32,000 bases of DNA from Candidatus Saccharimonadota bacterium (GTDB lineage: Bacteria; Bacillota_I; Bacilli_A; Mycoplasmatales; Hepatoplasmataceae): positions 510,001 to 542,000 of the forward strand of contig NZ_CP006932.1 in NCBI RefSeq assembly GCF_000582535.1, in the 5' to 3' direction. The notes beneath the pieces are model-generated. The model saw nothing but the letters and a program-made list of their open reading frames with translations, searched no databases and was not told the DNA's origin. The position numbers were made by a program, and so were the translations under genes. Positions 11,783 through 23,314 of the stretch are shown one piece after another (the stretch's first letter is position 1; each line of letters opens with the position of its first letter).

Positions 11783-11869
11783 GGAGGGGTAGCGAAGTCT
11801 GGCTAAACGCGGGTGACTGTAGATCATTTCCCTTTGGGTTCGGGGGTTCGAATCCCTCCCCCTCCACCA
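11783..11869 (+). tRNA. tRNA-Tyr (GTA), class II with long variable arm, CCA encoded
   Basis: The acceptor is GGAGGGG/CCCTCCA. The anticodon stem-loop ggtga-ctGTAga-tcatt and the T-arm ggggg-ttcgaat-ccctc are present. Length is 87 nt. Confidence 0.9.
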
Positions 11870-11874
11870 TTAAA

Positions 11875-11949
11875 TGGTCTGTAGCCAAGCGGTAAGGCAC
11901 ATGGTTTTGGTCCATGTATGCGTAGGTTCGAATCCTGCCAGACCAGCCA
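11875..11949 (+). tRNA. tRNA-Gln (TTG), CCA encoded
   Basis: The acceptor is tggtctg/cagacca. The anticodon stem-loop is catgg-ttTTGgt-ccatg and a T-loop ttcgaat is present. Length is 75 nt. Confidence 0.9.
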
Positions 11950-11954
11950 TTTAT

Positions 11955-12030
<76 letters not shown>

Positions 12031-12031
12031 C

Positions 12032-12119
12032 GCCCAGGTGGTGGAATTTGGTAGACACGAGGGACTTAAGCTCCCTTGGTCATTAGACTGTGCGGGTTCA
12101 AGTCCCGCCCTGGGCACCA
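12032..12119 (+). tRNA. tRNA-Leu (TAA), class II, CCA encoded
   Basis: The acceptor is gcccagg/cctgggc. The anticodon stem-loop is aggga-ctTAAgc-tccct. A long variable arm and the T-arm gcggg-ttcaagt-cccgc are present. Length is 88 nt. Confidence 0.9.
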
Positions 12120-12850: not shown

Positions 12851-13912
12851 ATGTTTACGATCTTAACAAATGAAACAGTAAAAAATTCTAAATCTATTTT
12901 TGCAAAAATTAGATTTTATATTTACAAAATAATTGAACCTTATCCAGAAAATAAGTTTTATGCTTATATTAGCTATTTTTATAATATCCTTACAATTATA
13001 TTTGCACTATTTGTTTTATTACCAGCATTATGATCAACAAGTGGAAATAATCCCTTTATTGATTGATTAGATGCTAATGCAATTGCTTTTTATATTGTTC
13101 TTACAATTGATTATATTCTAAGATGATTTATTTCTGATTATACACTTGGAAAAGGTTATAAATCATTTTTCTTATTTTTTGTTAGTTTTTGAGGAATAAT
13201 TGATTTTCTAGGAATTTTTCCTATTTGATTCGGAGCAAATGGATTTGCAATCTTTCTAATCTTCCGTTTATTTAAAATAATTCGTTTCTTTCCAAGAATA
13301 AACTCAGCTTTTATATTAATTAATAAAACATTATTTCGTAGATGAAAAGTCCTTACAATTGTCTTTATAAATTTTATTTTTATGATTTTTTTCGGAGCTA
13401 CATTAATCTGATTATTTGAAAATGAAACTAACCCTGATATTAATACTTTTTGAAATGCTGTATATATGATGTTTATTACGATGACGACAATCGGATTTGG
13501 TGATATTACTCCAATTACTACAGGAGGAAGAATTGTTGTTTCAATCTTCTCGTTAGTAGGTATTTCAATTATTGCAATTATTACTGCAATTGTAGTTACT
13601 AGTTTTACAGATGAATTAGAAGAAGTAAGAAGAAGAATTAATAAACAAAATAAATTATCACGAGAAAAATTATGAAAAAAATATCGTTCACTTACAAAAG
13701 AAGAAGTAATTGAATTACTTAAAAAATATAAAATCTCTTTCCCCGAAAGACAACGACATGATCAACTTGTAAATATATATATTACTTTTCTAATTAAAAA
13801 AGAAAATAAGAAAAATAAAACAGATCAAGTGGAATCAGTAAATGCTAATGAACTTCTAGATCAAGAACAAACAATTGAGATAAATAAATTAGATTCAAAT
13901 AAAGATAAATAA
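12851..13912 (+). CDS. Voltage-gated-type (6TM) potassium channel with a C-terminal HeH/Rho_N-like motif
   Basis: The gene encodes 353 aa and the frame was checked (TGA only). The selectivity filter is TTIGFGD. An S4-like segment FRLFKIIRFFPRIN has a basic residue at about every third position. The C-terminal tail is LTKEEVIELLKKYKISFPERQRHDQLVNIY. Confidence 0.8.
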
Positions 13913-13914
13913 AA

Positions 13915-14619
13915 TTAAAGAATTACAACTTTATTAGCTCTATTTTCAATTTTTATCTTTAAGTTAAATTTCTTAATAAGTCTATCTAATGTAAGGAAAA
14001 GAATAAAATTATCTTTGTATCTAAAGCAAATATCTCTTTCTCCTCGTAAAAGAATCACAAATCCATAATCATATAAAATTGCTTTTTTAATTTCATAAAA
14101 TTTTATTACTTCAATTATCTTATCTTTTTTTTGATCATAAAATACAATTTCAGAATTAGAAAAAATAAGTTCCCCTTTATTTTCTGATTGATAAATCTCA
14201 TTTTGATCTAACAAATATTTATTTACATTTTTATATAAAAAATAAGCAATTTTACTCAAGCTAATTCCTTGATAAGAAGAAGGATAAGGTGCTTCAATTG
14301 TTTTAAAAAATCTTCGATTTGTAAAATCTCTTGCAAGCATATATTGTAAATTTAAATCTTCGTAATTATAAAGTTTAAGATCTAATTTTATAATTATATG
14401 TTTCATCTTACTAAAAAAAACTTGATTATTATGATAATTTTTTTCTTTCCACTTACGAAAAAGAATTTTTTTATAACTCTCGAACAAATCATAATCAAAC
14501 TTAGATTGTATTTCTTTTATTTGCAATTTAGATAATTTATCTAAATTATCAAGATTCAATTTTTGATTAATTTTATAAAATTGATACTGAGTATTTACTT
14601 TTCCCTTAATTGTAGTCAT
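13915..14619 (-). CDS. Hypothetical protein (234 aa), last gene of the R-M operon
   Basis: This is an intact track ORF with no TGA codon. Its ATG is 13 nt downstream of the nuclease stop. I recognised no family. It contains IVFYD-x13-EIK, which resembles the nuclease's LLLYD-x9-EIK. Confidence 0.6.
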   Translation of the reverse strand: MTTIKGKVNTQYQFYKINQKLNLDNLDKLSKLQIKEIQSKFDYDLFESYKKILFRKWKEKNYHNNQVFFSKMKHIIIKLDLKLYNYEDLNLQYMLARDFTNRRFFKTIEAPYPSSYQGISLSKIAYFLYKNVNKYLLDQNEIYQSENKGELIFSNSEIVFYDQKKDKIIEVIKFYEIKKAILYDYGFVILLRGERDICFRYKDNFILFLTLDRLIKKFNLKIKIENRANKVVIL

Positions 14620-14632
14620 GTTTTTATTATAT

Positions 14633-15424
14633 TTAATTGAAGAAATTAGTTAATATATTTTCTATTTCATTTTTTAAATTATTTTTAATAATTTCATTAT
14701 TTGAAACCTTATTAAAAACTTCTTTTATATCACTAAATAAAATATTATTAGTAAATTTTATTCAAAATTCTTCTCCTCTAAGTAAATTTTTATTTTCTTC
14801 TAAATAATCATCTTTTCATCTTTTTTTATCATTAAAAAAATATAAAATTGGTTGAATTTTTTTATAATTTATTTTATTTTCTTCAAAATATCTTCTTAAA
14901 GCAAAAGTAGTTTCAAATAATTTTTTATAAATATTTTCATGCTTTCCAGTATCGTGATTATCTAAAAGTTTTATTTCAAATAAGTAATAATTGCTATTAT
15001 TATCGTACAATAGAAGATCAATATCTTTTTGTTTAATTTTTTTTGCTATATCTAATTTTTCATATTTAATATCATCTAAAAAACTTAAATTAAGATCTCT
15101 CTTATTTTTCATATAATCTTCAATCGAATCATTTTCTGCTTTTGAAATAATTCCATTTATTTTTTTACCTGATAATTTAGATAAATTATATTTTTTATCT
15201 TCTTTTACAATATCTCGTATTAATTTTTCAATAAAATTCCCAAAAGTAATACTTAAAGATTGTAAATAACTTATTAAATTTCTGTATTCAATTGGTAAAA
15301 AATGAACTTTTTCTTTATTATTTTTTATTTTTTTATTAAAATCTTTAGGATCTTTTTTTGATTTTATGATTTTATTTATATCACTTAAAATTATTTCTTC
15401 TAATTTTTCTTGATTTAAATTCAT
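14633..15424 (-). CDS. Type II restriction endonuclease candidate, PD-(D/E)xK type (263 aa), possibly R.HinfI-like
   Basis: The track ORF 14816-15424 extends through two TGA codons to TAA at 14633-14635; the frame was checked. The start lies 3 nt after the methyltransferase stop. The putative catalytic motif is DIDLLLYD...YYLFEIKLL. The 263-aa size is close to the 262 aa I recall for R.HinfI. Confidence 0.6.
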
Positions 15425-15427
15425 ATT

Positions 15428-16513
15428 TTATTTAACATCCTTTCTTATATCATCAATTGAAATATAATTATTCCCTTCCTTAATATATCAATATTTTCAA
15501 CCATTTAAATATCTACCATTTTCAAATATTTCAGTAGCTTTATGAATTGAATATTTAACATTATTTATTTTAATTTTTCCTTCTGAATTTAAATAAACTT
15601 TATCTTCTTTTAAATTGTATAAATATTTTGATTTAATTTTATTTTCTCTTATTAAATCTAAAATTTTGGGATATTTTATCTTTTCATCAAACTTCGCTTT
15701 AATATAATCAAAAAATGGGTCATTTTTTGAAATTTTATCAACATTTTTAATTCTATCATTAGCATAATTTATATATTTTTCATTATTTTCTATTCCTATA
15801 AAATTACGATGTAATTTTTTAGCAACAGCTCCTGTTGTTCCTGTTCCAAAAAAAGGATCTAAAATAACATCATTTATTTTTGTTGATGCTAAAATAATTC
15901 TTCTTAATAAATCTTCTGGTTTTTGTGTATTATGTAATTTATTACCATTATTATCTTTTAATCTTTCTTTTCCTGAACATATAGAAAATTTTCATACACT
16001 TCCCATTTGTTTTTTTTTATTTTCATTTTTCATTGTTTTATAATTAAAAGTAAATTTAGAATTTTGAGATTTTGTAAACCATATTAAATTTTCATTTGAA
16101 TTTACAAACTTTGTACCTCTAAAATTAGGAGTAGGATTCGTCTTTTCTCAAGTTATATCATTAATTATTCAAAAATTTAAATCTTGAATAATATAACCTA
16201 ATCTATAAATATTATGGAAAGTTCCCATTACTCATATTGAACCCTTATCTTTTAATATTCTTCTACATTGTGTTAATCATTTTCTAGTAAATTTATCATA
16301 TTCTTTATATGAATCAAATTTGTCCCATTCATCATCTACGCCATTATATTTATTACCATTAATTCTATAAAGAGTACCTGTTCCTGTTTGCATAAAATAA
16401 GGAGGATCAGCAAAAATTAAATCAATAGATTTAGAAGGTATTTTTTTTAATTCTTCTAAACAATTTCCTAATTTAATTTTATTTATAAATTTATCTAAAT
16501 TATCATTTTTCAT
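15428..16513 (-). CDS. Beta-class N6-adenine DNA methyltransferase of the CcrM / M.HinfI family (361 aa)
   Basis: I checked the frame from 15431 to 16276; only TGA occurs. Motif IV is IFADPPY near the N-terminus and motif I is [15 protein letters not shown] near the C-terminus, which is the beta order. Long stretches match my memory of Caulobacter CcrM: [40 protein letters not shown] and the C-terminal NGWKYWY. Confidence 0.85.
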
Positions 16514-16560
16514 CTTTTTAATTATAAAAAATAATTACTTTAAATAATTGTTTTTATATT

Positions 16561-17655
16561 TTAAATTAAATCCTTCAAATAATTATCTATTTCTATTATT
16601 TTATATGGTAACTGTTTTATTAATCCTTCTCTAAAATCTTCAATTATTTGACTTAATGAAGATTTTAAGTTATTAATTTGAAGTTCTCCGTTGGAGTAAA
16701 ATAATTTATATAAAGATTCTATTGATTCTCTTAATGAAGCATATTTTTGATTTAATCAATTTTTAAAAATAATTGTTTTATTATGATATATTCGATTTCT
16801 TAAAAATTTAATTTTTTCTAATTCATTTATAAATTCTTTTTTAATATTTACTAAATTTTTTGGATCTAATTCTTCAAAATTTAAAATTTTATTATTTACA
16901 ATTTCAAATTCTCAATGAATAATATTTTTAGTATTATTAAAAAATAGTCTCAATAAATTTGAAAAAGAAGTATCATCTAATTTTTCAATTAAATTAATAT
17001 AATCTTGAAAATTCATTTCTTCAAAAGTAATTTCTAAAAATTCATTAGATTCTTTCAAATCCTTTATAGTTGTTGGTATCATTTTTATTGATTCATGGAA
17101 AAGTGATTTTTCTTTATTCTTTTTTTCTTGCAAAATTCCAGGAAAAAAGAAAATTTTTTGGAAAGTTAAATTATTTTTTCTCATAATAGACATTAGCATA
17201 ACTCTTAAAAAATATTCAAAATTATAAATAACATCTCCTATTAATTTTCTAAAAATATCTTGCAATCTATAAAATGAATCAAAAATTTGAAAAGTTATAA
17301 TTTCTTTTTCTTCATAATTTATTTTTAAAATGTTTTCATAAATGTATTCAATAAATTTGAAACTATAAGTATTAGAAATTGCAAAAAATTGTTCTAAATA
17401 TCTATTTGTTGTGAAAGGGATATTATTTTTTAAGCAATTCAATATTTTATCTGAATTAATTTTTCTATTTTTATTAAAAAAATTTCAAATTTTTTTATAA
17501 TAAATGTTATTTTCTATATATTGAACATTTTTATTAATGTTTTTTATATTTTCTTCGTCAGCTTTTTTAAAATTATCAAAAAAAATTATTAATTCATCAA
17601 TTTTTTTTCTTTTTTTATTTGATCTAATTTCTCTATCATATCCGTTATTTTTCAT
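16561..17655 (-). CDS. Abi_2 (AbiD/AbiF-like) HEPN-type abortive-infection protein candidate (364 aa)
   Basis: ATG is at 17653-17655 and the frame was checked down to TAA at 16561-16563 (three TGA codons). The sequence KFLRNRIYHNKTI supplies an R-x4-H HEPN motif (codons 16783-16800) in the context typical of the Abi_2 family. Confidence 0.6.
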
Positions 17656-17703
17656 AAATTCATCTTTTTTTATTTATTTACAAATATTATAAATAAATAT
17701 TTA

Positions 17704-18354
17704 TTAATTATTATCTTTATATCTCCCTACCAAATAATCTATAAGTAAAATAATTATTAATAAAAATAAAAACAATCCTTCTGATCCAATTATTATATTT
17801 CGATACTGATAAAAAGTTGGATAAATTCCTGATCCTGAAATAAATATTAAAAGTAAAATAAAATAAATCGGAAATAAAAAAGCTGAATAAATTATTTTAA
17901 ATTTAAAACTAATAAGAATCGAAATAAAATATAAAAATGTGCAATTAATCATAAAATAATAAAATCATCTTTTTGTATAAGAAGTATTAAAATTAGATAA
18001 AACAAAATAAGCAACAAGATAATAAAAAATAATACTAATTAAAAGAATTACTAAACAAGAAATAATAATTGAATAATAATAACTATTTCTAAGTTTAAAA
18101 TTATTTAACTGAAACTTAAGTTTTTTTCATCTATCAATTAAAACAACTACAAAACTTATTGAAATTAAATTAATAAGCGAAAAATACATAATAATTCTTG
18201 GCGGATCTAATTTTCATGTTTCTAGATGATCTTTTACTACTTGAAAAACTGAATTTAATTCAATAAAAAAAGTAGATCATATTAAAAAAAATAAAATTAA
18301 AATTACTAGTGATTTTAAATTTCAAATTTTTCTAAGATAAAATAATAATTCCAT
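17704..18354 (-). CDS. Hypothetical multi-pass membrane protein (216 aa), first gene of the minus-strand island cluster
   Basis: ATG is at 18352-18354 and the frame was checked (TGA only). There are about six hydrophobic helices, for example LVILILFFLIWSTFFI, YFSLINLISISFVVVLI, IIISCLVILLISIIFYYLVAYFVL and FLFPIYFILLLIFISGSGI. It ends 48 nt upstream of the Abi-like gene. Confidence 0.6.
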
Positions 18355-18542
18355 AATTTATATTTTCATTTATAGTTTTATTATATTAATTACTAAAAAT
18401 ATAAATATTATTAACTATATTAGAATTATATATAATTAATTTTTTTCTTTCATTCTCAATATTTCTTATTTCCTAAAATTTGTAATATAATTAAATACAG
18501 ATAATTAAAGAGAGTAAACATAGGATTAATAAAAGGAAATTT

Positions 18543-18856
18543 AATAAAAAATGGGAAAAACTATCTTACCTAGGGATAAAGCGGTTGAATTAATACAAGA
18601 AACATTTAAGGATAACAATTTTGCTTCTCTAAGCTTACAACAAATTTTTAATAGTAAAAGATTATTACAATATAAAAGTCAATATAAAAATGAAGAATCT
18701 TACCAAAGTGCAATCAAATGAAATTTAGAAGTAAATTCAAAAGATTCTAAATTATGAGATAAAAAAAATAATATCTTTGAAAATAGAAATATTGGAGAAG
18801 GAATATGAGGAGTAGTAGGAGATACAGTTCATACATATAAGGAACCTTCATCTACT
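18543..18856 (+). repeat. Direct repeat copy 2, paired with 8797-9108
   Basis: See copy 1. Homology crosses the ATG of the HNH gene (aataaaaaATGGGaaaaact versus aataaaaAGTGGaaaaact) with a 1-nt indel just upstream. Confidence 0.9.
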
Positions 18857-19285
18857 TCTAAAACAATAACTTCTTTTAAAACAAAAAAAGCAAAAGTAAC
18901 AAAAGCAATAAAAGCAACAACAAAAATTAAAAAAGCAAAAAGCGGAAACAAAGAAACAGATCTATTAGATCTATTAAATAGTGAATTAGATGATGATTTA
19001 AAATTAATCATTACAAAAAAAATTAAATTAAATAAAGAATTAGCTTCTGAAATTAGAGCAAGAGCAAATCATAGATGTGAATATTGTGGACAAGAAACTT
19101 TTAAAAATGATCAAGATGAAGGATATCTTGAAGTTCATCATATTGATTTTCTATGTGAAGGTGGAAAAGATCAAAAAGATAATTTAATTGCTCTTTGTCC
19201 AACTTGTCACCGTAGAGCACACTCTTCTAAAGAAAGAGAAGAATTTAAAGAAGAATTAAAAAATATTGTAAATGATAAAAATTAA
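18551..19285 (+). CDS. HNH endonuclease with an N-terminal winged-helix-like (Mrr_N / HARE-HTH-like) module (244 aa)
   Basis: The full frame was checked. The C-terminus is HRCEYCGQETF...LEVHHIDFLCEGGKDQKDNLIALCPTCHRRAH, an HNH/CCHH motif. The first 101 aa are about 89% identical to residues 47-147 of the ABC ATPase. Confidence 0.8.
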
Positions 19286-19305
19286 ATTTTATTAATTAAC
19301 AAAAT

Positions 19306-19334
19306 AAAAAGCAACCCTTAAGGTTGCTTTTTTC
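19306..19334. terminator. Bidirectional rho-independent terminator between the HNH gene and rpoC
   Basis: aaaaa-gcaacc-cttaa-ggttgc-ttttttc has a G+C-containing stem flanked by A and T runs, between two convergent stops. Confidence 0.8.
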
Positions 19335-19342
19335 TTTTATTA

Positions 19343-23314
<3,972 letters not shown>

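What the first reader, a model, noticed from the sequence alone, without database searches (positions are those of the whole stretch)
13915..14619. Unknown 234-aa gene translationally tied to the restriction gene
Its ATG lies 13 nt after the nuclease stop, and no promoter-like gap or terminator separates them. It therefore looks like a third cistron of the M-R operon. I could place it in no family. It contains IVFYD-x13-EIK, which is similar to the putative catalytic LLLYD-x9-EIK of the adjacent nuclease. It could be a second PD-(D/E)xK subunit or paralogue, a specificity or control factor, or an unrelated passenger. Its C-terminal third (short beta-strand-like runs followed by a helix, DRLIKKF) could also be a PH-like fold. 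Classical HinfI-type systems, as I recall them, have only two genes.
Basis: inference. Interest (0 to 1): 0.6.

Follow-up and report, generated by a model that had tools for sequence, protein, structure and literature searches.

The report
Core PH-domain gene beside swappable restriction cassette
The 234-aa gene is real but is not part of the restriction system: it is a conserved, lineage-specific Mollicute gene (helical domain plus PH-like domain) that ancestrally follows rpoC, and restriction and other defence genes have been inserted and swapped just upstream of its own promoter.

Summary
The ORF (13915-14619, minus strand) is a genuine gene in a code-4 Mollicute, close to Candidatus Hepatoplasma crinochetorum. 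It starts 13 nt after the stop of a HinfI-family nuclease, as reported. It is not a third R-M subunit.

- A sister strain is 99% identical on both flanks but carries a different R-M cassette. The right breakpoint falls at the nuclease stop codon, upstream of this gene's start.
- In three other relatives another gene lies between the nuclease gene and this one, so the order varies.
- In four more distant Mollicute genomes the homologue follows rpoC directly. None of eight distant contexts has adjacent R-M genes.
- An exact TATAAT fills the 13-nt gap, 6 nt before the ATG, and there is no Shine-Dalgarno. The same box recurs in distant homologues, which suggests an own, leaderless transcript.
- A confident AlphaFold model (pLDDT 89) shows five N-terminal helices plus a canonical PH-like domain. 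The best structural matches are SSRP1, Vps36-GLUE and ARAP3 PH; none of the 50 listed is a nuclease.
- The proposed D/E/K residues are not conserved across 29 family members. There is no similarity to the nuclease.

Function is unknown, most likely a non-catalytic binding protein. This is an ordinary conserved hypothetical gene at the edge of a defence-gene hot spot.

The parts
13915..14619 (-). T234: 234-aa protein with no TGA codons. It belongs to an unnamed Mollicute family.
   Evidence: The ORF is listed. Orthologues are 74-99% identical. Exhaustive HMMER found 33 family representatives. dN/dS is 0.06-0.20.
14314..14619 (-). N-terminal five-helix domain (residues 1-102). It contains the invariant N25.
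   Evidence: AF2 model m446880437230 predicts helices 4-20, 31-38, 43-61, 66-78 and 85-102. N25 is invariant in 29 of 29 members. The domain has no sequence match in PDB or Pfam.
14284..14325 (-). Most conserved motif of the family, FTxxRxFKTIExPY (residues 99-112). It lies at the junction of the two domains.
   Evidence: R103 and K106 are invariant. P111 is present in 25 of 29 members and Y/F112 in 27 of 29.
13960..14247 (-). PH-like (GRAM/GLUE-like) domain, residues about 125-220: seven strands followed by a C-terminal helix.
   Evidence: predicts strands 127-138, 141-153, 157-162, 167-173, 177-182, 187-191 and 196-200, then helix 204-218, with block pLDDT of 76-97 (mostly 88-97). Foldseek against PDB gives SSRP1 N-terminal domain (E 6e-5, TMt 0.71), Vps36 PH and ARAP3 PH. 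Weak profile hits go to Vps36, GRAM and BBS5.
14626..14631 (-). Exact TATAAT (-10 box) inside the 13-nt gap. It ends 6 nt before the ATG, and its first T is 12 nt upstream. This is the inferred promoter of a leaderless T234 transcript.
   Evidence: The box is reported. The same box lies 5-9 nt before the ATG in L002, L003, L004, L013, L015, L016 and L017. A -10 signal at about 12 nt marks leaderless genes, which average 18% in Mycoplasma (PMC3160421). The transcription start site itself is not shown.
14633..15424 (-). R263: HinfI-family type II restriction endonuclease with two TGA=Trp codons. It is a neighbour, not a partner.
   Evidence: It matches NF045831 restrict_HinfI at E 6.7e-35 and PADLOC REase_II at 5e-22. 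Its orthologues carry PF09520.
15428..16513 (-). M361: CcrM/HinfI-like N6-adenine methyltransferase. A TATAAT lies 7 nt before its ATG.
   Evidence: It matches PF01555 at 6e-67 and NF050803 at 2e-129, below that model's cutoff.
14634..17644 (-). 3.0-kb exchangeable cassette (X364 + M361 + R263). In sister strain AP027132 it is replaced by an HNH-like 426-aa gene plus a 589-aa fused C5/N6 methyltransferase.
   Evidence: In blastn, both flanks are 99% identical up to window 17645 and from window 14633 onward.
16561..17655 (-). X364: unassigned 364-aa protein that moves with the M-R genes. In H. scabrum it lies between R and T234. It contains RNRIYH, an Rx4H motif that looks HEPN-like by eye.
   Evidence: It has no family hit and only Hepatoplasma homologues. 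The scabrum 369-aa gene matches it at 66% nucleotide identity.
19306..19332 (.). Bidirectional intrinsic-terminator-like hairpin just after rpoC. It marks the left border of the inserted island (about 14620-19305).
   Evidence: The scan found 2 terminator-like hits against 0.2 expected.
19343..23314 (-). rpoC, the ancestral upstream neighbour of the T234 family.
   Evidence: The gene order rpoB-rpoC-T234 homologue, with no intervening gene, is seen in L011, L012, L013 and L015.

Best explanation
T234 is a vertically inherited gene of Hepatoplasmataceae-type Mollicutes, not a component of the HinfI-type R-M system.

Locus history. Ancestrally the gene sat directly downstream of rpoB-rpoC. In the H. 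crinochetorum/scabrum clade, defence genes were inserted and repeatedly exchanged in the rpoC-T234 spacer. These include the HinfI-type M+R pair, an alternative HNH/C5+N6 R-M, a GmrSD-like gene, an HNH gene and X364-type genes. In this window the nuclease gene ends 13 nt from the T234 start because the insertions stop just upstream of T234's minimal promoter.

Expression. That promoter is an exact TATAAT 6 nt before the ATG, with no Shine-Dalgarno sequence. I infer that T234 is expressed from its own leaderless mRNA. Read-through from the M-R genes is possible but would be incidental.

Protein. T234 is a basic (pI 9.6), soluble protein with two domains. A five-helix N-terminal domain is joined to a canonical PH-like (GRAM/GLUE-type) beta-sandwich through the highly conserved linker FTxxRxFKTIExPY. 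I infer that it acts as a non-catalytic binding or adaptor protein for a peptide or an anionic ligand in core cell physiology. A possible but unproven link to transcription rests only on its conserved position after rpoBC.

Shown: the gene is real, the family exists, and the synteny, breakpoints, fold class and lack of conserved catalytic residues are as described. Inferred: promoter use, the leaderless mRNA, and the binding/adaptor function.
For: Cassette swap. Against sister strain AP027132 (L004), the window is 99% identical from 24000 to 17645 and from 14633 to 11501. The 3.0 kb in between (X364-M-R) is replaced by unrelated genes. T234 itself stays 99% identical.

Variable order within the clade. 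L002 has a GmrSD_N gene on the opposite strand between R and T234. L001 has the X364 homologue there. L018 (strain Ps) has 453 nt and a small opposite-strand ORF there. L003 has the same 13-nt junction as the window.

Outgroups.
- rpoC is followed directly by the T234 homologue in Ca. Tyloplasma litorale, Ca. H. vulgare, GCA_001641225 and GCA_030621645.
- Four further contexts were examined: one with fhs upstream, and three with a convergent HIT gene downstream.
- None of the eight distant contexts has an adjacent R-M gene.

Promoter. An exact TATAAT lies 5-9 nt before the ATG in the window and in L002, L003, L004, L013, L015, L016 and L017. In the window, genes split into a TATAAT/no-SD class (T234, M361, p212, the 776-aa gene) and an SD class (rpoB, rpoC, rplL, pgi and others). 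The literature links a -10 box at about 12 nt to leaderless genes.

Fold. The AF2 model has pLDDT 88.9 and pTM 0.70. All 50 top Foldseek PDB matches are PH/PTB/GRAM-like. Sub-threshold profile hits go to Vps36-GLUE, GRAM and BBS5.

Not a nuclease. D162 is conserved in 16 of 29 members. Position 176 is E in 5 and D in 10 of 29. K178 is conserved in 12 of 29. BLASTP against R263 gives a best E of 0.03 over 27 aa elsewhere in the protein.

Selection. dN/dS is 0.06-0.20.

Not mobile. There is no match in the phage or plasmid collections.
Against: - In every genome of the crinochetorum/scabrum clade examined, T234 lies within about 1.3 kb of an R-M gene and on the same strand. No terminator separates it from R263 in this window, so co-transcription by read-through cannot be excluded.
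- No experimental transcription start site exists for this uncultured organism.
- TATAAT-like strings are common in 24% GC DNA. The general promoter scan was not enriched over shuffles (67 hits against 63 expected).
- The biochemical function is not established. The N-terminal domain has no detectable relatives.
- Adjacency to rpoC holds only within one Mollicute family. A terminator-like hairpin often separates the two genes, so a transcription-related role is weakly supported.
Confidence: 0.8

Rival explanations
1. T234 is a third functional component of the HinfI-type R-M operon. It would be a second PD-(D/E)xK nuclease subunit or paralogue, or a specificity subunit, translated in coupling with R263.
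For: The gene lies on the same strand with a 13-nt spacing and no terminator. A D-x13-ExK string is present. The same junction is kept in L003.
Against: - The cassette breakpoint lies between R and T234.
- A sister strain keeps T234 at 99% identity but lacks the HinfI genes.
- Other genes are inserted between R and T234 in L001, L002 and L018.
- Eight distant homologues have no R-M neighbour.
- The predicted fold is helical plus PH-like, not alpha-beta-beta-beta-alpha-beta.
- The D/E/K residues are not conserved.
- There is no similarity to R263.
- There is no SD sequence for coupled initiation.
Confidence: 0.02
2. T234 is a generic defence-associated accessory, such as a sensor, regulator or anti-toxin-like adaptor. 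It would serve whichever defence cassette sits next to it, which would explain why it stays while the cassettes change.
For: In six genomes of the crinochetorum/scabrum clade it is always embedded among defence-type genes: R-M, GmrSD_N, HNH and X364-like genes with Rx4H motifs. PH-like domains are binding modules.
Against: - Outgroup genomes keep the gene under its own promoter between rpoC and housekeeping genes (HIT, sufS, pgi), with no defence gene beside it.
- One lineage places it between fhs and sugar-metabolism genes.
- It has no PADLOC hit.
- It has no homologues on phages or plasmids.
- It shows purifying selection typical of a core gene.
Confidence: 0.06
3. T234 is an RNA-polymerase or transcription-associated accessory factor specific to Hepatoplasmataceae. 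It would be encoded as the distal gene of the rplJL-rpoBC cluster. This is a more specific version of the best explanation.
For: The order rpoB-rpoC-T234 homologue on the same strand is seen in four divergent genomes, with a spacer of only 24 nt in H. vulgare. The protein is basic. PH-like domains act as protein-binding modules in eukaryotic transcription factors such as FACT, which gave the top structural matches.
Against: - A terminator-like hairpin and a separate -10 box lie between rpoC and the gene in L013. Weaker hairpins, seen by eye only, lie there in L011, L015 and L016.
- The synteny is lost in three other lineages (L005, L014, L017).
- The family is absent downstream of rpoC in Metamycoplasmataceae and other Bacilli.
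- Structural matches to FACT reflect the generic PH fold.
Confidence: 0.12

Closest known systems
PH-like superfamily, GRAM/GLUE-type domains (Vps36 GLUE, MTMR GRAM, SSRP1/Pob3 N-terminal PH)
   Same: T234 has a seven-stranded beta-sandwich closed by a C-terminal helix. Foldseek gives E 6e-5 to 2e-4 and target-normalised TM 0.5-0.7. Weak profile matches go to PF11605, PF02893 and PF21098 and to the Vps36 PDB chains.
   Different: T234 is bacterial (Mollicute). It is fused to an unrelated five-helix N-terminal domain. Sequence scores are below every Pfam threshold. Nothing is known about lipid, ubiquitin or histone binding.
Bacterial PH domains (Pfam bPH_1 to bPH_6, for example YdbS/YdbT-type)
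   Same: They are a small bacterial PH-like module of unknown or binding function.
   Different: No bPH family appeared among the Pfam matches listed for the 29 members. From general knowledge, many bPH proteins carry transmembrane helices, but T234's sequence shows no long hydrophobic stretch by eye; I ran no transmembrane predictor.
HinfI R-M system (hinfIM and hinfIR, recognising GANTC)
   Same: The neighbouring genes R263 and M361 belong to these families.
   Different: From general knowledge, the classical system has two genes. T234 is not conserved with them, lies outside the exchangeable cassette and has a non-nuclease fold.
Defence islands or integration hot spots flanked by core genes
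   Same: The position between two core genes (rpoC and T234) is fixed, while its defence content varies between strains. Six different arrangements were seen in six genomes.
   Different: This is a very small genome. No integrase, tRNA or att-like repeats were identified at the borders. The right border coincides with the -10 box of a leaderless gene.

Membership tests
PD-(D/E)xK nuclease superfamily | Alpha-beta-beta-beta-alpha-beta core fold | tested here: not met
   The AF2 model (pLDDT 88.9) shows five helices plus a PH-like sandwich. None of the top 50 Foldseek PDB matches is a nuclease.
PD-(D/E)xK nuclease superfamily | Conserved catalytic D...(D/E)xK residues across homologues | tested here: not met
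   D162 is conserved in 16 of 29 members. Position 176 is E in 5 and D in 10 of 29. K178 is conserved in 12 of 29. The only invariant residues are N25, R103 and K106, which lie elsewhere.
PD-(D/E)xK nuclease superfamily | Paralogy with the adjacent HinfI-family nuclease | tested here: not met
   The best BLASTP E-value is 0.03 over 27 low-complexity residues, and the two motifs do not align.
HinfI-type R-M system (as an additional subunit) | Conserved genetic linkage with the R and M genes across genomes | tested here: not met
   Sister strain L004 lacks the HinfI genes but keeps T234. Eight distant homologues have no adjacent R-M gene. T234 lies within 5 kb downstream of rpoC only in Hepatoplasma loci.
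HinfI-type R-M system (as an additional subunit) | Physical or functional interaction with R or M | not testable with these tools
   This needs biochemistry or a multimer structure prediction.
R-M controller (C) protein | Small (about 80-100 aa) Xre-type HTH protein, usually upstream of R | tested here: not met
   T234 is 234 aa, lies downstream of R, and has no HTH family hit in Pfam or NCBIfam at E <= 1.
PH-like domain superfamily | Seven-stranded antiparallel beta-sandwich capped by a C-terminal alpha-helix | tested here: met
   DSSP on the model gives strands 127-138, 141-153, 157-162, 167-173, 177-182, 187-191 and 196-200, then helix 204-218. This is a prediction, not a solved structure.
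PH-like domain superfamily | Significant structural similarity to solved PH-like domains | tested here: met
   Foldseek gives 6l1r/5umr at E 6e-5 to 7e-5 with TMt 0.71, 2cay at 2e-4, and 7yis at 2.5e-4 with TMt 0.66. An independent low-depth model gave the same class of matches.
Pfam GRAM (PF02893) / Vps36 GLUE (PF11605) | Score above the family gathering threshold | tested here: not met
   Hits are sub-threshold only: 5, 3 and 2 of 29 members, with best E-values of 0.0024-0.0097. The profile against PDB Vps36 gives E 0.065. T234 has the same fold class but is not a member of these families.
Leaderless transcription unit | A -10 box about 12 nt upstream of the start codon and no Shine-Dalgarno sequence | tested here: met
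   The sequence reads TATAAT-AAAAAC-ATG. The arrangement is conserved in seven other loci. The criterion is taken from PMC3160421.
Leaderless transcription unit | mRNA 5' end at the start codon | not testable with these tools
   This needs 5'-RACE, dRNA-seq or a metatranscriptome.

The most novel reading that the evidence does not exclude
The T234 family is a previously undescribed RNA-polymerase-associated PH-like factor of Hepatoplasmataceae. It would be encoded as the last gene of the rpoBC cluster, and its -10-only leaderless promoter would form the fixed right border of a defence-cassette exchange site. A bacterial PH-like transcription accessory protein would have no described precedent that I know of.
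Probability: 0.1. Interest if true: 0.5.

Novelty: new member of a known kind. Interest (0 to 1): 0.2.

Why it matters
The result removes a tempting but wrong annotation, a three-gene HinfI-type system or a second nuclease subunit. It shows how tight gene spacing in a compact, AT-rich, code-4 genome can mimic operon membership.

Two modest positive outcomes follow. First, it defines a small unnamed Mollicute protein family (five-helix domain plus PH-like domain, motif FTxxRxFKTIExPY) that could be deposited as a new family. Second, it documents a strain-variable defence hot spot between rpoC and this gene in Hepatoplasma. The published defence-gene table for these genomes does not list the HinfI-type system (PMC10928387).

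Tried and rejected
- Pfam, NCBIfam, PADLOC and PHROGs on T234 gave no hit.
- The first AF2 run, with 5 close sequences, gave pLDDT 47. Only the C-terminal part was usable. It was superseded by the 29-sequence run.
- The search for homologous proteins with the 29-sequence alignment returned only 7 proteins and missed sequences that are in the alignment itself.
- The search for related loci with that alignment failed because no stretch was conserved enough.
- Foldseek against viral structures gave only generic PH-like or uncharacterised matches.
- The profile search against PDB sequences gave only sub-threshold Vps36 and BBS5 hits.
- GANTC avoidance was checked as a sign of R-M activity. There is none: 85 sites against 93.5 expected.
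- X364 was searched for a family. Only Hepatoplasma homologues were found, so the HEPN/Abi-like idea rests on an Rx4H motif seen by eye.
- The generic sigma-70 scan is uninformative in this 24% GC DNA: 67 hits against 63 expected.
- Terminator-like hairpins after rpoC in L011, L015 and L016 were seen by eye. L011 and L015 were scanned and did not pass the 3-G:C-pair criterion; L016 was not scanned. Only L013 passed.
- tblastn against phages and plasmids gave no match.

Full report
**Observation**

The window has 24% G+C and uses genetic code 4. Long genes appear only when TGA is read as Trp. The reported ORF (13915-14619, minus strand, 234 aa, no TGA) is present.

The upstream 263-aa ORF (14633-15424) contains two TGA codons. 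It matches the NCBIfam HinfI-family model (E 6.7e-35) and a PADLOC type II REase model. The 361-aa ORF before it is a CcrM/HinfI-like N6_N4 methyltransferase.

Exactly 13 nt separate the nuclease stop from the ATG. No terminator-like site lies between them. IVFYD-x13-EIK is present. The nuclease motif is LLLYD-x8-EIK, not x9. T234 has no hit in Pfam, NCBIfam, PADLOC or PHROGs.

**The gene is real and belongs to a family**

The word-indexed search found only four relatives, 74-99% identical, all from Candidatus Hepatoplasma. Pairwise dN/dS among five orthologues is 0.06-0.20.

The exhaustive HMMER search found 33 representatives of 200-260 aa at 21-32% identity. The named ones come from Ca. Tyloplasma litorale, Ca. 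Hepatoplasma vulgare and Mycoplasmataceae MAGs.

In the 29-sequence alignment only N25, R103 and K106 are invariant. The strongest motif is FTxxRxFKTIExPY.

**Genomic context is decisive**

In all Hepatoplasma relatives the gene lies between rpoBC and a K+-channel/ABC/pgi block. What lies next to it varies:

| Genome | Gene order (< = opposite strand) |
|---|---|
| Window | rpoC, <HNH, Y216, X364, M, R, T234 |
| AP027132 (99% identical T234) | rpoC, <HNH, 217 aa, 426 aa (weak HNH_2), 589 aa fused C5+N6_N4 methyltransferase, T234 |
| L003 | M, R, T234, 342 aa |
| L002 | M, R, <GmrSD_N, T234 |
| H. scabrum | M, R, X364 homologue, T234 |
| Strain Ps | X365, M, R, <91 aa, T234, <HNH fragment |

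blastn against AP027132 shows 99% identity from window 24000 to 17645 and again from 14633 to 11501. A 3.0-kb cassette (X364-M-R) has therefore been exchanged. Its right breakpoint sits at the nuclease stop codon, leaving T234 and its 13 upstream bases outside the cassette. L002 has its insertion at the same junction.

In four more distant genomes the T234 homologue directly follows rpoC (L011, L012, L013, L015). Four other distant contexts were examined. One has fhs upstream and sugar-metabolism genes downstream. Three have a convergent HIT gene downstream. None of these eight contexts has an adjacent R-M gene.

I ran the family HMM over 80 loci downstream of rpoC from GTDB species. It hit only the Hepatoplasma loci. 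No relative occurs in the phage or plasmid collections.

The ancestral state is therefore rpoC-T234. The R-M genes are later insertions into that spacer.

**Expression signals**

The 13-nt gap reads A-TATAAT-AAAAAC-ATG. This is an exact -10 hexamer ending 6 nt before the ATG, with its first T 12 nt upstream. There is no Shine-Dalgarno sequence.

The same hexamer, 5-9 nt before the ATG, occurs in L002, L003, L004, L013, L015, L016 and L017. It persists even where the upstream DNA is unrelated.

Within the window, genes fall into two classes:
- TATAAT at 6-10 nt and no SD: T234, M361, p212 and the 776-aa gene.
- SD-bearing: rpoB, rpoC, rplL, pgi, ABC genes and others.

A -10-like signal about 12 nt upstream of the start codon has been described as the signature of leaderless genes. 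These average about 18% of genes in Mycoplasma genomes (PMC3160421).

I infer that T234 starts its own leaderless transcript. This would also explain why foreign DNA can be inserted right up to the -10 box without harming the gene. This is inference: no transcription start data exist, and read-through from M-R cannot be excluded.

After rpoC, a terminator-like hairpin is found in the window (19306-19332) and in L013. Weaker hairpins in L011 and L015 did not pass the scan. One in L016 was seen by eye only and not scanned.

**Protein**

With 29 sequences the AlphaFold model reaches pLDDT 88.9 and pTM 0.70. It shows:
- helices 4-20, 31-38, 43-61, 66-78 and 85-102;
- a conserved linker;
- seven strands (127-200) and a C-terminal helix (204-218), which is the canonical PH-like topology.

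The best Foldseek matches against PDB are the SSRP1 N-terminal domain (E 6e-5, TMt 0.71), Vps36 PH/GLUE and ARAP3 PH. All 50 listed matches are PH/PTB/GRAM-like, and the earlier low-depth model gave the same class.

D162 is kept in 16 of 29 members. Position 176 is E in 5 and D in 10 of 29. K178 is kept in 12 of 29. BLASTP against the nuclease finds nothing significant.

**Interpretation**

T234 is a conserved, lineage-specific core gene that encodes a basic two-domain protein with a PH-like module. It is most likely a non-catalytic binding or adaptor protein.

Its only functional hint is the conserved position after rpoBC. That hint is weak because of the intervening terminator and promoter and because the synteny is lost in other lineages.

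T234 is not a subunit, paralogue or controller of the HinfI-type system. The tight spacing results from defence-cassette insertion next to a leaderless promoter in a compact genome.

The finding is ordinary as regards R-M biology. The by-products are a new small protein family and a documented defence hot spot downstream of rpoC in Hepatoplasma. The HinfI-type system is not listed in the published defence table for these genomes (PMC10928387).

Noticed in passing
window 14634-17644 vs L004 6877-9986: A whole-cassette exchange separates two strains that are 99% identical. X364 plus HinfI-type M and R in the window is replaced in AP027132 by a 426-aa protein (weak HNH_2 hit) plus a 589-aa fused C5/N6_N4 methyltransferase. 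Across six Hepatoplasma genomes the rpoC-T234 spacer shows six different contents.
   Followed up: yes
window 16561-17655 (X364); L001 8859-9968; L018 5748-6845; L003 2758-3786: An unassigned 342-369-aa protein family travels with the M-R genes but changes position: upstream of M in the window and in strain Ps, between R and T234 in H. scabrum. It carries an Rx4H motif near the C-terminus (RNRIYH, RNKIYH; L003's 342-aa protein has RDDVMH). This looks HEPN/Abi-like by eye. There is no Pfam, PADLOC or PHROG hit, and only Hepatoplasma homologues were found.
   Followed up: partly
[not shown]
   Followed up: partly
window 15428-16513 (M361 start at 16513): M361 has an exact TATAAT 7 nt before its ATG and no SD. 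R263 has an AAGGA-type SD-like string 13-14 nt upstream, inside the end of M361. This suggests a leaderless M-R transcript with R as an internal cistron.
   Followed up: partly
window 19306-19332: A perfect bidirectional terminator-like hairpin lies between rpoC and the convergent HNH gene.
   Followed up: no
window 1-32000: GANTC sites are not depleted (85 observed against 93.5 +/- 8.7 expected). There is no sign of site avoidance despite the resident HinfI-type system.
   Followed up: yes
window 11783-12119: A cluster of four tRNA genes (Tyr, Gln, Lys, Leu) lies on the + strand between the ABC permease genes and the p212/K+-channel genes.
   Followed up: no
window 12851-13912 / 13915-14619: The K+-channel gene and T234 are convergent, with only 2 nt between their stop codons and no room for a terminator. 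Their transcripts probably overlap at the 3' ends.
   Followed up: no
L005/L008 1-5526; L014 1222-4965: Other Mollicute contigs that carry T234 homologues have large AAA_11/AAA_12 helicase genes a few kb away, and L005/L008 also have an AAA_5 gene. These may be defence genes, but they are separated from the T234 homologue by housekeeping or unknown genes.
   Followed up: no
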